From assembly GCA_947302355.1 (NCBI GenBank), contig CAMYUU010000001.1, forward strand, positions 465-64,464: a stretch of DNA of 64,000 bases, read 5' to 3'. The translations under genes and the position numbers were made by a program. A model generated the notes under the pieces. That model did no database searches and had not been told where the DNA came from. It worked only from the letters and a program-made list of their open reading frames with translations. Origin of the DNA: an uncultured Candidatus Saccharibacteria bacterium (GTDB taxonomy: Bacteria; Patescibacteriota; Saccharimonadia; Saccharimonadales; Saccharimonadaceae). This document shows, piece by piece, positions 2,297 to 5,014 of the stretch; position 1 is the stretch's first letter, and each line of letters begins with the position of its first letter.

Positions 2297-5014
2297 CTAT
2301 TTAGTTGTTTTATTATTCCCTGTTTTACTGGCTGTTTTGTTACTGGTTTTGCTGCTGGCTTTATCGTCAGCTTTGCCTTCTTCGGGTTCTTCTTCTGGAA
2401 GAACGATACCGATAGAGGCCACAGTATCACCTTCGCTCATTTTCATAATGCGAACACCTTGAGTAGCACGACCTAAGGTCGGGATTTCTTTCATGGCTAC
2501 ACGGATAGCTTGACCCTTGGTAGACATCATAATTACCTCTTTGGCGAGTGGATCTAGGGTGTGAACCGCCACGATTGGACCAGTTTTGGCCGTAACAGAG
2601 GCGACCTTAATGCCAACACCGCCGCGTTTATGAGGTGGGAAGTTGGAGACCAAGGTAGCTTTACCATAGCCATTGGCCGAAACGACGATTAATTTCTGCT
2701 TAGGATCGGTAACTACATCCATGCCGACGATTTCGTCCTTCGGACGGAGGCGCATGCCTCTTACGCCCATGGCGGCACGACCCATAACGCGAACTTCCTT
2801 TTCGTTGAATCTCGTGGCTTGACCGGCCGAAGTAGAGATAATAATATCATTCTCCCCTGTAGTTTCTTGAACCCACTTGAGTTCATCCCCTTCAGCGAGC
2901 TTGATAGCGATTAGGCCGTTGCTACGGACATTAAAGAAATCTTTAGCTGCAGATTTCTTGATGGTACCCTTCTTAGTGGCCATGAAGAGATAACCATCGG
3001 CCCCAGAGTCACCTTGCTTGATAATAGCAGTAATCTTTTCTTCTGGGTGCATATTGAGCATGTTAACGGCGGCTGTACCCTTGGCGGCTAATGACGCCTG
3101 TGGGACTTCATAGGCTTTCATACGGAACAATCTTCCCTGATTGGTGAAGAATAACAGAGAGTCGTGAGAATTGGCGGTCAGAATCTGTGCAATCACATCC
3201 TCCTCTTTAGTGGTCATGCCACGTTTTCCTTTACCACCTCTGTTTTGCTTCCTGAAATCGGTCTGCGGAACACGCTTCATGTAATTTTCTGAGGTTAAAA
3301 GAATAACACTTTCCTCTTCCGGAATAAGTTCTTCTTCGGAGAATTTGCCAACTTCGTGATTAATAATCTTGGAACGACGTTCGTCACCATACTTATCTTT
3401 AAGTGCAAGCAATTCTTCTTTGATGACGCGAAGGATTTCATTTTCATCAGCAAGAATTGCCTCTAGTTTCTTGATTAAATCATGGAGTTGCTTTAATTCT
3501 TCCTCGATCTTATCGCGTTCCAACCCCTGGAGGCGACGAAGTTGCATCTGCAAGATAGCATTGGCTTGAATCTCGGAAAGACCAAACTTAGACATCAACT
3601 GTTTATCTGCGTCATCATAAGAGGCGCGAATTACTTTAATCACTTCATCGATATTATCTAGAGCAATTTTTAACCCTTCGAGAATGTGTGCTCGTTCTTT
3701 AGCTTTCTTTAGTTCAAATTCGGTGCGACGGCGTACTACCTTCTGACGGTGTTTGATAAATTCACCAAGTATCTCTTTGAGACCTAGTGTCCTTGGCTGA
3801 ACACCATCAATGAGGGCCAGCATGTTGTAGTGGAAAGAGGCCTGAAGCCCGGTCATTTTGTAGAGTTGGTTAAGAATTTTCTTTGGGAAGGCGTCTTTCT
3901 TTAGCTCAACTACGATACGAATCTTACCCCTTGCAGATTCGTCACGAGCATCGGCGATGTGGTCCAACTTCTTAGCTAAAACTAATTCGCGAACTTTCTC
4001 GATGAAACCTTCCTTACTCATGCCGTAAGGAACTTCTGTAATTACGATGTTATGGCGACCTTTTGCGCGCTCTTCGATATTAGTGACGGCGCGAATAATT
4101 ACAGAGCCTTTACCTGTGGCGTAAGCCTGTTTCATTGGTGCGCCGCCGTAGACTTCAGCCCCTGTTGGAAAATCTGGACCTTTGACATGCTTCATCAATT
4201 CGTCAAGAGAAATATCTGGGTCGTCAATTTGGGCTACGGTAGCGTCTACCAATTCCCCAAGATTATGAGGAGGAATATTGGTAGCCATACCGACGGCAAT
4301 ACCCATTTGGCCATTCAAAAGAATATTAGGGAGAGCGGCCGGAAGGACTGCTGGCTCTTTCTCTGTACCATCGAAGTTATCACGAAAATCTACCGTATCC
4401 TTCTCGATATCAGTTAAAAGCTCGGCGCCAACTTTGTCCATGCGAGCCTCAGTATAACGTGATGCCGCAGCTTCATCTCCGTCCATGGAGCCAAAGTTAC
4501 CCTGTCCTTCAATAAGAGTGTAGCGCATCTTCCAGGGCTGAGCGAGGTTGACCATCGCCATATAGATGGAGGAGTCGCCGTGCGGATGATATTTACCCAT
4601 AACTTCACCGACAATGCGAGCGGATTTAACTGTGGGATGCGGGGCTTTCCAGCCATTTTTATTCATAGCATAAAGAATTCGCCGATTAACTGGCTTCAGG
4701 CCATCACGAACATCTGGGAGAGCACGGTCAATAATCACGGACATGGAGTACTTGAGGAAGTAGTCTTCCATGGTATGTTCGACTGGCTTAATTTCCAAGC
4801 CACTCTGAATTGTAGAAACCTCAGATACGCCCTCTTCAGACACACTCGACGGCACAGAACTAGCGTCATTCTTCGGGGCGCGTCGCTCGCTCCCGTCGCC
4901 ACGGGGCTCGCGCGCTACTCCTCGCCTTGCCAGGCTCCGGACCCCCTCAGAATCGACACTAGCTTCCGTGCTATCGTCTGTGTTTAGAATATTATTGCTC
5001 TTGTCATCTTCCAT
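2297..5014 (-). CDS. gyrA: DNA gyrase subunit A
   Basis: 905 aa with ALPDVRDGLKPVNRRILYAM, KYHPHGDSSIY and C-terminal beta-pinwheel-type repeats. GGAGG SD. A ~65-aa N-terminal extension contains repeat copy A. Confidence 0.97.
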   Translation of the reverse strand: MEDDKSNNILNTDDSTEASVDSEGVRSLARRGVAREPRGDGSERRAPKNDASSVPSSVSEEGVSEVSTIQSGLEIKPVEHTMEDYFLKYSMSVIIDRALPDVRDGLKPVNRRILYAMNKNGWKAPHPTVKSARIVGEVMGKYHPHGDSSIYMAMVNLAQPWKMRYTLIEGQGNFGSMDGDEAAASRYTEARMDKVGAELLTDIEKDTVDFRDNFDGTEKEPAVLPAALPNILLNGQMGIAVGMATNIPPHNLGELVDATVAQIDDPDISLDELMKHVKGPDFPTGAEVYGGAPMKQAYATGKGSVIIRAVTNIEERAKGRHNIVITEVPYGMSKEGFIEKVRELVLAKKLDHIADARDESARGKIRIVVELKKDAFPKKILNQLYKMTGLQASFHYNMLALIDGVQPRTLGLKEILGEFIKHRQKVVRRRTEFELKKAKERAHILEGLKIALDNIDEVIKVIRASYDDADKQLMSKFGLSEIQANAILQMQLRRLQGLERDKIEEELKQLHDLIKKLEAILADENEILRVIKEELLALKDKYGDERRSKIINHEVGKFSEEELIPEEESVILLTSENYMKRVPQTDFRKQNRGGKGKRGMTTKEEDVIAQILTANSHDSLLFFTNQGRLFRMKAYEVPQASLAAKGTAAVNMLNMHPEEKITAIIKQGDSGADGYLFMATKKGTIKKSAAKDFFNVRSNGLIAIKLAEGDELKWVQETTGENDIIISTSAGQATRFNEKEVRVMGRAAMGVRGMRLRPKDEIVGMDVVTDPKQKLIVVSANGYGKATLVSNFPPHKRGGVGIKVASVTAKTGPIVAVHTLDPLAKEVIMMSTKGQAIRVAMKEIPTLGRATQGVRIMKMSEGDTVASIGIVLPEEEPEEGKADDKASSKTSNKTASKTGNNKTTK
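4860..4962. repeat. GC-rich palindromic mini-element, family 1 copy A (inside gyrA codons ~18-52)
   Basis: Core 4874-4948 matches 49624-49698 at 70/75 positions (hand alignment). Central hairpin CCCGT-CGCC-ACGGG. Imperfect outer inverted repeat CTAGCGTCATTCTTCGGGG / CCCCCTCAGAATCGACACTAG. Confidence 0.85.

What the first reader, a model, noticed from the sequence alone, without database searches (positions are those of the whole stretch)
4860..4962. GC-rich palindromic mini-element translated inside the 5' end of gyrA (founder copy of a dispersed family)
Seen: 4874-4948 (CGGGGCGCGTCGCTCGCTCCCGTCGCCACGGGGCTCGCGCGCTACTCCTCGCCTTGCCAGGCTCCGGACCCCCTC) matches 49624-49698 inside the sufB/D-like gene at 70/75 positions by my hand alignment. 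It is also recognisably related to 21034-21108 (miaA) and 25348-25400 (next to tRNA-Val). The core carries a hairpin (CCCGT-CGCC-ACGGG). It is flanked by an imperfect, copy-specific inverted repeat of AT-richer local sequence (CTAGCGTCATTCTTCGGGG ... CCCCCTCAGAATCGACACTAG), so the whole ~103-nt unit is a palindrome. The core begins 66 nt after the gyrA ATG and is translated as GVRSLARRGVAREPRGDGSERRAP, within a ~65-aa N-terminal extension that E. coli-type GyrA lacks. Inference: a MITE/REP-like element has colonised essential coding sequence, conceptually like Rickettsia palindromic elements. The copy-specific inverted (not direct) flank repeats hint at an unusual insertion or fold-back mechanism. 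I do not know of a description for this lineage.
Basis: partly seen in the sequence, partly recalled or inferred. Interest (0 to 1): 0.85.

Follow-up and report, generated by a model that had tools for sequence, protein, structure and literature searches.

The report
In-frame GC-rich hairpin repeats in Saccharibacteria
The GC-rich stretch at the start of gyrA is one copy of an apparently undescribed family of about 100-base hairpin-forming DNA repeats. They sit in frame inside many essential genes of rumen Saccharibacteria and point in a fixed direction relative to the chromosome's strand asymmetry.

Summary
Window 4857-4964, 49607-49714 and 21019-21124 (all minus strand) are three copies of one repeat family. 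The proposed fourth copy (25348-25400) is not a member.

The organism is a rumen Saccharibacterium (Candidatus Nanosyncoccus). A covariance model finds 86 copies in 650 kb of related DNA.
- **Structure:** all copies share a Y-shaped fold: a locus-specific basal stem, three nested tandem GA/GA loops and two hairpins. Covariation is very strong: 27 of 30 pairs show double changes.
- **Location:** about 90% lie in frame inside housekeeping genes (GyrA, SufD, MiaA, LeuRS, DnaG, DnaX, RecX, TsaD and others). They occur in either gene orientation and are read in several frames.
- **Orientation:** it follows GC3 strand skew, not transcription (56:8 copies; 25:3 by site).
- **Conservation:** at orthologous sites the core is 83-97% identical where host third codon positions are 38-49% identical. 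The arms drift with compensatory changes.
- **The gyrA copy:** it is a mosaic of gyrA-type arms and a SufD-type core, so it is not a founder.

Best reading: a REP/RPE-like DNA palindrome whose single-stranded fold and persistence depend on replication polarity. Translation through it is tolerated. How it moves is unresolved.

The parts
4857..4964 (-). gyrA copy of the repeat (whole unit: arms plus core), in frame in codons ~17-53 of GyrA
   Evidence: Covariance model R1: 40.1 bits, E 5.5e-9. nhmmer E 3e-12. Fold -61.1 kcal/mol, z -5.2. Translation.
4873..4948 (-). Core of the gyrA copy, from the outer GA to the outer GA (76 nt). SufD-type sequence.
   Evidence: 93% identical to 49623-49698. 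61/63 identical to the sufD core over alignment columns 45-107, against 65-70% to gyrA-site cores of L067, L044 and L028.
4892..4909 (-). Hairpin 2 signature (sense strand GAGCCCCGUGGCGACGGG), bracketed by a tandem GA/GA loop
   Evidence: Stem pairs are almost invariant in 85 distinct copies (helix 6). This 18-mer was the pattern used for the metagenome scan.
4924..4935 (-). Hairpin 1 (sense strand GCCUGGCAAGGC), the variable second branch of the Y
   Evidence: Folds. Helix 3 covaries in all 8 pairs across the family.
4949..4962 (-). Sense-strand 5' arm of the basal stem (locus-specific)
   Evidence: Pairs with 4860-4872 in RNA and DNA folds. Aligns with the arms of other gyrA alleles.
4860..4872 (-). 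Sense-strand 3' arm of the basal stem (locus-specific)
   Evidence: Folds. 58-68% identical to the 3' arms of gyrA alleles L067, L044 and L028, against 26-37% to sufD arms.
4819..4855 (-). Remnant (3' half) of an older, shorter element of the same architecture, encoding SSVSEEGVSE
   Evidence: Aligns with the short 'SEDRKLGRAPLSVSEE' element of the closest GyrA allele L002 and of 10 other alleles.
2297..5014 (-). Host gene gyrA (905 aa). The topoisomerase domain starts at residue 97.
   Evidence: Pfam PF00521 and PF03989. Orthologues are named DNA gyrase subunit A, Candidatus Saccharibacteria.
49607..49714 (-). sufD copy of the repeat. A 34-aa in-frame insert, read in a different frame from the gyrA copy.
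   Evidence: R1: 44.5 bits. Most SufD orthologues are 307 aa without it and a clade is 341 aa with it. DNA alignment.
21019..21124 (-). miaA copy of the repeat (another core subtype), in frame near the N-terminus
   Evidence: R1: 62.1 bits. nhmmer E 2.9e-18. Host carries Pfam IPPT.

Best explanation
**What it is.** It is a non-autonomous, DNA-level palindromic repeat, working like REP/REPIN and Rickettsia RPE elements. It lives in the chromosomes of rumen Saccharibacteria.

**Anatomy.** The unit is about 100 nt, or 34 codons. It has a sequence-constrained GC-rich core that folds, as one strand, into a Y:
- stem P1;
- hairpin 1;
- a second branch with two tandem GA/GA loops around the hairpin GCCCCGU-RRCG-ACGGG.

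The Y is closed, through a third GA/GA loop, by a basal stem whose sequence is free but whose pairing is kept.

**Shown:**
- the fold is conserved by covariation;
- copies are kept open and in frame in essential genes, so they are translated rather than removed;
- orientation follows strand skew and not transcription;
- at orthologous sites the core is conserved far beyond neutral expectation, while the arms drift by compensatory changes.

The gyrA mosaic further indicates that cores are exchanged between loci.

**Inferred:**
- the relevant form is single-stranded DNA at the replication fork;
- one orientation persists or propagates and the other is lost;
- cores are homogenised, swapped and possibly flipped by recombination between copies and between the inverted arms;
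- the encoded peptides are tolerated by-products in surface loops and tails.

**Unknown:** the enzyme, if any, that makes new insertions.
For: **Structure.**
- 86 copies; 94.5% of cells paired against 69.7% in shuffles.
- 27 of 30 pairs have changes on both sides.
- Covariation score 0.505, against 0.137 in shuffles (0/500 reach it) and 0.05-0.07 in slid controls.

**DNA level rather than mRNA level.**
- 23 of 77 intragenic copies are antisense to their host. Nine such hosts checked are bona fide genes by Pfam: RecX, MnmA, TatD, TsaD, DnaG, an RNA methyltransferase, DnaX, a GTPase and an aminotransferase.
- Transition mismatches in the arms are strand-symmetric, 70 against 60.
- The same core is read in at least two frames in the window itself.

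**Polarity.**
- The strand reading GAGCCCCGTRRCGACGGG lies on the C-rich (GC3) strand in 39/46 copies and 56/64 copies (p 6e-10).
- The split is 38:3 for host-sense and 15:3 for host-antisense copies.
- Counted by insertion site it is 25:3 (p 3e-5).
- At the single gyrA site, 24 of 25 element-bearing species have gyrA on the C-rich strand, against 25 of 52 element-free species (Fisher p 3e-5).

**Translation.**
- All 80 gyrA alleles read through.
- 77 of 86 copies lie inside intact ORFs.
- LeuRS lengths cluster near 748, 782, 815 and 850 aa, steps of about 34 aa.

**Constraint.** In SufD orthologues, host third positions are 38-49% identical, the core 83-97% and the arms 67-78%.

**Core exchange.**

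**ssDNA folding.** The sense strand also folds better than its complement as DNA: -29/-31/-27 against -24/-27/-25 kcal/mol.
Against: - No transposase or HUH enzyme was found, but only about 30 window ORFs were scanned and the rest of the genome is not available.
- No recent insertion was caught with a clean empty site, so mobility itself is inferred from presence/absence and from the core swap.
- There is a modest excess of host-sense copies (54:23, partly from orthologous gyrA and sufD copies). The conserved tandem GA/GA loops would also fit an RNA role.
- Which strand is leading is not established. The gyrB-gyrA-16S block is on the C-rich strand in 51 species and on the G-rich strand in 29, and there is no overall gene-strand bias. 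So 'replication polarity' rests on GC skew as a proxy.
- The strong nucleotide conservation of the core at orthologous sites is more than a purely parasitic relic would show.
Confidence: 0.55

Rival explanations
1. A host-serving DNA signal. The core is a strand-specific site for a replication, repair, recombination or chromosome-organisation factor. It would be polar in the way Chi or KOPS sites are polar, or act like a hairpin priming signal. It would be kept by selection on the host and embedded in genes because the genome has almost no intergenic space.
For: - Orientation is tied to strand skew.
- The core is conserved at orthologous sites as strongly as nonsynonymous positions of the host gene.
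- The SufD copy is vertically inherited across a clade.
- The GA/GA loops are conserved, as expected for a specific recognised shape.
Against: - Presence/absence varies among close relatives. GyrA alleles of 95% identity carry none, a short element or a full element.
- Partial deletions are tolerated.
- Density is low and uneven: 3 copies in 64 kb, but essentially one site in 15 kb around gyrA across 80 species.
- Several core subtypes coexist in one genome.
Confidence: 0.2
2. An RNA-level module. The hairpin acts in the mRNA (stability, processing or translation pausing near cistron junctions) or is itself a small RNA. The DNA pattern would be secondary.
For: - The sense-strand RNA folds are much more stable than the complement: -61/-59/-50 against -46/-48/-44 kcal/mol.
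- Tandem GA/GA loops are classic RNA motifs (my own knowledge).
- About 70% of intragenic copies are sense to the host.
- All three window copies sit 30-70 nt into the downstream gene of a tight operon junction: gyrB-gyrA, sufC-sufD and thrS-miaA.
Against: - 23 copies are antisense inside real genes.
- Polarity follows GC skew equally in sense and antisense copies.
- There is no G.U excess on the sense strand of the arms.
- Positions along host genes are roughly uniform.
- No Rfam family matches, even at E<=10.
Confidence: 0.15
3. A protein-level feature. The inserted peptide (Arg/Glu/Gly/Ser/Pro-rich, probably disordered) is what is selected, for example as a linker or interaction tag.
For: The SufD peptide SRESGAWQGEDERASPVATGASDAARET is conserved among orthologues. 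Inserts lie at tolerant loops and tails.
Against: - The same DNA is read in different frames and on both strands, giving unrelated peptides.
- Third codon positions inside the core are conserved while host third positions are saturated.
- Base-pair covariation is pervasive.
Confidence: 0.03
4. Fold-back or inverted-duplication insertion. Each insertion copies the upstream host flank in inverted orientation, which creates the copy-specific arms.
For: - The insert-free gyrA alleles L052 and L033 retain the 5' arm plus CTGAGG but lack the core and the 3' arm. The filled allele L002 shows CTGAAG...CTGAGG direct repeats.
- At the methyltransferase site the upstream arm encodes a host-like motif, NLxWL.
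- Arms reach 46 nt, longer than a fixed 102-nt unit allows.
Against: - In LeuRS and SufD the insert is about 102 nt, and the proximal part of both arms falls inside the extra segment.
- Neither arm of the window gyrA copy is present in the insert-free allele L001.
- The L052 state can equally be a deletion between the direct repeats.
- Orthologous arms demonstrably co-evolve after insertion.
Confidence: 0.07

Closest known systems
Rickettsia palindromic elements (RPE-1 to RPE-10). See Ogata, Claverie and colleagues, as summarised in PMC10969869 and PMC3733652.
   Same: - Palindromic repeats of about 100-150 bp.
- Inserted in frame in many unrelated housekeeping genes of a host-dependent bacterium with a reduced genome.
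- They encode tolerated extra peptides.
- No transposase is known.
- Several subfamilies exist.
   Different: - A different phylum (Saccharibacteria). No sequence comparison was run.
- Here only the core is conserved and the closing arms are locus-specific.
- Here the core is a two-hairpin Y with three tandem GA/GA loops.
- Here orientation is polarised relative to GC skew. I do not know whether this has been examined for RPEs.
REP/REPIN elements with RAYT transposases, including intragenic GTAG/CGTC-tagged REPs (PMC3733652, PMC3116915, bioRxiv 10.1101/2021.07.10.451892)
   Same: - Imperfect palindromes that persist vertically for long periods with conserved sequence.
- They fold as single strands.
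- Some lie inside replication and repair genes.
- Thought to depend on a single-strand-specific HUH enzyme.
   Different: - No unpaired GTAG or CGTC tag.
- About 90% are intragenic rather than extragenic.
- The unit is a branched structure of about 100 nt rather than a 20-40 bp hairpin or a REP doublet.
- No RAYT gene has been identified.
IS200/IS605-family single-strand transposition and its hairpin-only derivatives (my own knowledge: Ton-Hoang et al., Cell 2010)
   Same: Hairpin-defined elements whose orientation in the genome follows the direction of replication, because the active strand must be exposed on the lagging-strand template.
   Different: No TnpA or TnpB, no defined left and right ends, and no conserved target tetranucleotide demonstrated. 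Elements of that family are not known to sit in frame in genes.
GC clusters, double-hairpin elements and 'byp' elements of fungal mitochondria (my own knowledge)
   Same: GC-rich hairpin repeats in a compact, AT-richer genome, found inside coding sequence. The double-hairpin layout is similar.
   Different: Those are organellar. The byp elements are skipped by the ribosome, whereas here every intragenic copy keeps frame and is stop-free, which implies translation.
Adeno-associated virus terminal repeat (T-shaped hairpin with flip/flop forms) and integron attC sites (my own knowledge)
   Same: - AAV: a long stem capped by two small hairpins, with two orientations of the asymmetric tip between fixed arms.
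- attC: a recombination site defined by single-strand structure rather than sequence, and sensitive to replication orientation.
   Different: There is no evidence of any evolutionary or enzymatic relation. In attC the conserved and variable parts are arranged the other way round.

Membership tests
Rickettsia palindromic elements (RPE) | Palindromic repeat of about 100-150 bp inserted in frame in many unrelated protein-coding genes | tested here: met
   77 of 86 copies lie inside intact ORFs. Hosts were identified by Pfam. Inserts are about 34 aa.
Rickettsia palindromic elements (RPE) | Occurs in Rickettsia and matches an RPE consensus | tested here: not met
   The host is Candidatus Saccharibacteria / Nanosyncoccus. 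No RPE sequence was available for a direct comparison.
Rickettsia palindromic elements (RPE) | The whole element, ends included, is conserved among copies | tested here: not met
   Arms are unique to each locus, while cores align well.
REP / REPIN-RAYT | 20-40 bp imperfect palindrome with an unpaired GTAG or CGTC tag at one end (PMC3733652) | tested here: not met
   Hairpin 2 is flanked by GA/GA loops. No terminal GTAG or CGTC tag appears in the aligned copies.
REP / REPIN-RAYT | Predominantly extragenic | tested here: not met
   About 90% are intragenic.
REP / REPIN-RAYT | A RAYT (Y1 HUH) gene in the same genome | not testable with these tools
   None was found among about 30 window ORFs scanned. 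The rest of the genome is not at hand.
REP / REPIN-RAYT | Long vertical persistence with conserved sequence | tested here: met
   In SufD orthologues the core is 83-97% identical while host third positions are 38-49% identical.
Classical MITE | Conserved terminal inverted repeats shared by all copies | tested here: not met
   Only about 5-7 proximal nucleotides next to the outer GA are similar within subfamilies. The rest of each arm is unique.
Classical MITE | Target-site duplication | tested here: inconclusive
   CTGAAG...CTGAGG direct repeats flank the short gyrA element. No such repeat was evident on reading the other copies.
IS200/IS605-type single-strand elements | Orientation tied to replication direction | tested here: met
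   This holds with GC3 skew as the proxy: 56:8 copies and 25:3 sites; at the gyrA site Fisher p 3e-5. Leading or lagging strand identity was not determined.
IS200/IS605-type single-strand elements | TnpA gene, subterminal left and right hairpins, and a conserved target tetranucleotide | tested here: inconclusive
   No TnpA was seen in the window. The ends cannot be defined because the arms vary in length.
Any described RNA family (Rfam 15) | Match to a curated covariance model | tested here: not met
   No match at gathering score in the window, and none at E<=10 over 4820-5000.
Translational bypass elements / introns | The element need not keep frame or be stop-free | tested here: not met
   All 80 gyrA alleles and 77 of 86 copies are open and in frame. 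The one TAG-creating difference is absent from the sufD copy, where that frame is used.

The most novel reading that the evidence does not exclude
The repeat would not be a passenger. It would be a vertically inherited, structure-defined single-strand DNA element integrated with chromosome replication in an ultra-small episymbiont.
- Its Y-shaped core would be read by a fork-associated factor in one polarity only.
- It would survive inside essential genes because there is no intergenic space.
- Its cores would be swapped and flipped between locus-specific hairpins when a gene changes replication strand.

This would be a new class of polar chromosomal signal, written in secondary structure and tolerated as protein sequence.
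Probability: 0.2. Interest if true: 0.88.

Novelty: new variant of a known kind. Interest (0 to 1): 0.68.

Why it matters
In-frame palindromic repeats were thought to be close to a Rickettsia curiosity. A second, unrelated case in the Candidate Phyla Radiation shows that compact, host-dependent genomes repeatedly let structured DNA repeats write themselves into essential proteins, including GyrA, LeuRS, DnaG, DnaX and TsaD.

This family adds three features I have not seen reported together:
- locus-specific arms that co-evolve around a conserved core;
- nucleotide conservation of the core at orthologous sites far beyond neutral expectation;
- an orientation set by strand asymmetry rather than by the gene.

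This gives a concrete system for asking how palindromes survive replication, whether REP-like elements are commensal or useful, and how protein insertions arise.

There is also a practical point. These 34-aa inserts inflate and fragment protein families in Saccharibacteria and can mislead alignments and phylogenies.

Tried and rejected
1. **Fourth copy at 25348-25400:** rejected. There is no hit with nhmmer or with the covariance model with filters off at E<=10.
2. **Known RNA family:** no Rfam match.
3. **Hammerhead-like reading of CUGA...GAA:** rejected on reading the sequence. The UGA of the core is missing and the two arms pair with each other.
4. **Splicing or ribosomal bypass:** rejected, because every intragenic copy keeps frame.
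5. **GC-island scan with a crude flank-repeat score:** too noisy to define the family.
6. **Descriptor scan for N9-GA...GA-N9':** 173 hits against about 100 in shuffles. It was useful only for spotting other families.
7. **RNA-specific G.U excess in the arms:** not found, 70 against 60.
8. **RNAalifold on a plain MAFFT alignment:** it recovered only hairpin 2, because the 3' halves were out of register. A structure-seeded covariance model was needed.
9. **Phage carriage:** the single viral hit is a chance 18-mer in a 66% GC contig.
10. **High-GC metagenome hits:** all are chance matches to the 18-mer only.
11. **Transposase in the window:** none among the ORFs scanned.
12. **Leading-strand assignment from gene orientation:** inconclusive.
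13. **My assumption that the two largest ORFs were rpoBC:** wrong. They are a repeat-rich surface protein and DnaE.
14. **Origin of the arms from empty-site comparisons:** ambiguous.
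Full report
**1. Observation**

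The reported similarity is real.
- Window 4873-4948 and 49623-49698 are 93% identical over 76 nt. The blastn match is 66/69, E 4e-28.
- A family profile and a covariance model also place the miaA segment 21019-21124 in the family.
- With filters off and E<=10, the model finds exactly three copies in the 64 kb: 4857-4964, 21019-21124 and 49607-49714, all on the minus strand.
- It finds nothing at 25348-25400, so the proposed fourth relative is not supported.

The three hosts are confirmed as GyrA, a SufB/D-family protein and MiaA.
- The sufD copy is read in a different frame.
- The two-base difference between the copies removes a TAG that would stop that frame.
- Each unit folds into a long hairpin: -61, -59 and -50 kcal/mol as sense-strand RNA, z-scores -5.2 to -5.7. 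The same shape forms as DNA.

**2. Organism**

GyrA, SufD and LeuRS relatives are annotated Candidatus Saccharibacteria. The 80 closest gyrA loci come from ruminant-gut genomes, many named Candidatus Nanosyncoccus.

**3. Anatomy**

An exact-pattern scan of metagenomes with the hairpin-2 signature returned 120 loci.
- About 60 loci, all at 38-53% GC, carry the full element.
- The 60 high-GC loci match only the 18-mer and are chance hits.

Aligned copies and their folds show one architecture:
- a basal stem (the 'arms');
- a tandem GA/GA internal loop;
- stem P1;
- a three-way junction carrying hairpin 1 and a second branch in which two more GA/GA loops bracket the conserved hairpin GCCCCGU-RRCG-ACGGG.

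A covariance model seeded on eight copies found 86 copies in 650 kb. On that alignment:
- 94.5% of cells are paired, against 69.7% in shuffles;
- 27 of 30 pairs show changes on both sides;
- the covariation score is 0.505, against 0.137 in shuffles and 0.05-0.07 with slid partners.

The alignment is fitted to the model, which favours the structure, but the margin is very large. No Rfam family matches.

The arms are 11-46 nt long and unique to each locus, yet complementary.

**4. Location and translation**

- 77 of 86 copies lie inside intact ORFs of at least 120 aa, spread along the host proteins.
- Hosts include GyrA, SufD, MiaA, LeuRS (two sites), Obg, YchF, RecX, MnmA, TatD, TsaD, DnaG, DnaX, a class-V aminotransferase, an RNA methyltransferase and GTPases.
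- 54 copies are sense and 23 antisense to the host. Nine antisense hosts checked are real genes whose Pfam domains span the insert.
- All 80 gyrA alleles read from the conserved start through to the catalytic domain.
- Saccharibacterial LeuRS lengths cluster near 748, 782, 815 and 850 aa, steps of about 34 aa.
- SufD is 307 aa without the insert and 341 aa with it.

The units are therefore kept in frame and stop-free. This argues for translation and against splicing or ribosomal bypass.

**5. Polarity**

These genomes have a strong strand-wide GC3 skew that is independent of gene direction. The strand that reads GAGCCCCGTRRCGACGGG lies on the C-rich strand in:
- 39 of 46 pattern hits;
- 56 of 64 model hits (p 6e-10), splitting 38:3 for host-sense and 15:3 for host-antisense copies;
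- 25 of 28 insertion sites after collapsing orthologues (p 3e-5).

A natural experiment at gyrA supports this. The syntenic gyrB-gyrA-16S block sits on the C-rich strand in 51 species and on the G-rich strand in 29. Of 25 species with an element there, 24 have gyrA on the C-rich strand. Among 52 species without one the split is 25:27 (Fisher p 3e-5). Relatedness of the species inflates this somewhat.

Transition mismatches in the arms are strand-symmetric, 70 against 60, so there is no RNA-type G.U signature.

Orientation therefore tracks the chromosome's strand asymmetry, the usual proxy for replication direction, and not transcription. I could not determine which strand is leading.

**6. Evolution**

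The SufD insert is shared by a clade, and partly deleted derivatives exist. Among four orthologous copies:

| Region | Identity |
|---|---|
| Host third codon positions | 38-49% |
| Host positions 1 and 2 | 81-90% |
| Core | 83-97% |
| Arms | 67-78% |

- The arms show many paired compensatory changes.
- One inner GA/GA loop is replaced by C-G and G-C pairs in one species.

The window's gyrA copy is a mosaic:
- its core is 61/63 identical to the sufD core of the same genome, but 65-70% identical to cores at the gyrA site in other species;
- its 3' arm is 58-68% identical to those gyrA arms and 26-37% identical to sufD arms;
- the 5' arm is uninformative.

It also abuts the remnant of an older, shorter element at 4819-4855.

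The same sites carry every core subtype, in either orientation, or none. This holds for the GyrA N-terminus, LeuRS site 1 and sites in RecX, TatD, the methyltransferase and the aminotransferase. At the methyltransferase site the arms are orthologous while the core is inverted between lineages, and both states obey the skew rule.

Taken together, this fits long-lived, locus-specific hairpins whose cores are conserved, exchanged between loci and possibly flipped between the inverted arms.

**7. Mechanism**

I commit, at about 0.55, to a DNA-level REP/RPE-like repeat.
- Its single-stranded Y-fold is the selected form.
- Its persistence or spread depends on replication polarity.
- Translation is a tolerated by-product.

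Shown: the fold, the in-frame state, the polarity and the core constraint. The core exchange is inferred from the gyrA mosaic. Also inferred: the single-stranded DNA form, orientation-dependent loss, and recombination as the homogenising force. Unknown: the insertion enzyme.

Rivals, each with its evidence in the structured fields:

| Rival explanation | Confidence |
|---|---|
| Host-serving polar DNA signal | 0.2 |
| mRNA or small-RNA module | 0.15 |
| Fold-back insertion that creates the arms | 0.07 |
| Selected peptide | 0.03 |

**8. Comparison with known systems**

It works most like RPEs and intragenic REPs (PMC10969869, PMC3733652) and shares long vertical persistence with REPINs (bioRxiv 10.1101/2021.07.10.451892). 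It fails the defining tests for each:
- it is not in Rickettsia;
- its ends are not conserved;
- it has no GTAG or CGTC tag;
- it is not extragenic;
- no RAYT or TnpA was found.

Its skew polarity recalls IS200/IS605 single-strand transposition (my own knowledge). Three literature searches found no description in Saccharibacteria or Patescibacteria.

**9. Verdict**

This is a real and, as far as I can find, undescribed repeat family: a new variant of the in-frame palindromic repeat. It has an unusual branched core, co-evolving arms and strand polarity. The 'founder' and 'fold-back' parts do not, or remain open.

Noticed in passing
window 31677-31813 and 32470-32592: A second, unrelated hairpin repeat family lies in intergenic DNA. 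It has a conserved core, ACGCTCCA(A)GGCCGCTCTGGCCA(A)GTCTTTATG, closed by long locus-specific inverted repeats (29-32 nt, 81-90% complementary). The layout is the same as in the gyrA family. The best Rfam match is far below threshold (RAGATH-6, 21 bits against 170).
   Followed up: partly
L024:3312, L006:1097, L028:2821, L028:15509, L046:14163(-), L076:14150: A third family has the same 'unique stem - GA - core - GA - unique stem' layout. Its core is TTGGTGGTTTCT...GAAGCGC...GAGC...AAAAACCGCCAA. It turned up in the GA/GA descriptor scan.
   Followed up: no
L003-L082 (gyrB-gyrA-16S block); window genes: The same syntenic block, with the 16S rRNA gene downstream on the gyrA strand in 47 loci, lies on the C-rich (GC3) strand in 51 species and on the G-rich strand in 29. 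Skews range from -0.44 to +0.69 and agree between plus-strand and minus-strand genes of each locus. Either this block often changes replication strand, or skew polarity differs between lineages.
   Followed up: partly
L015:13715-13756, L006:13793-13834; compare L037:13708-13806, L012:7742-7799, L033:7776-7826: A short ('d-type') element sits inside the tip of another conserved hairpin (GGCGGGTG...CAGGACCCGCC). In L037 that hairpin lies just upstream of the 16S rRNA gene. The interior of that hairpin differs greatly between species. Its identity is unknown.
   Followed up: no
It is not a family member. It could be a terminator, or arms without a core.
   Followed up: partly
P0241-P0360 (LeuRS of Saccharibacteria); L098:5107-5214 and 6300-6410: LeuRS lengths cluster near 748, 782, 815 and 850 aa, steps of about 34 aa. 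One LeuRS carries two elements. Site 1, between GAEIDF and VFTTRPDT, is a hot spot holding every subtype in both orientations.
   Followed up: partly
window 34661-39829 (-): A 1723-aa ORF has internal repeats of about 1.3 kb (35256-35555 against 36558-36857, 72% identical) and a Listeria-Bacteroides repeat domain. It is probably a surface protein. The neighbouring 1242-aa ORF is DnaE.
   Followed up: partly
window 60600-63700: This stretch is GC-richer (49-54%, against about 43% elsewhere). Its ORFs of 84, 322, 327 and 149 aa have no Pfam match. It may be foreign or lineage-specific DNA.
   Followed up: no
window 7068-9638 (-): An 857-aa TraG/VirD4-like coupling-protein homologue (TraG-D_C and HerA-like domains) lies directly upstream of gyrB. 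The same neighbour is seen in L002.
   Followed up: no
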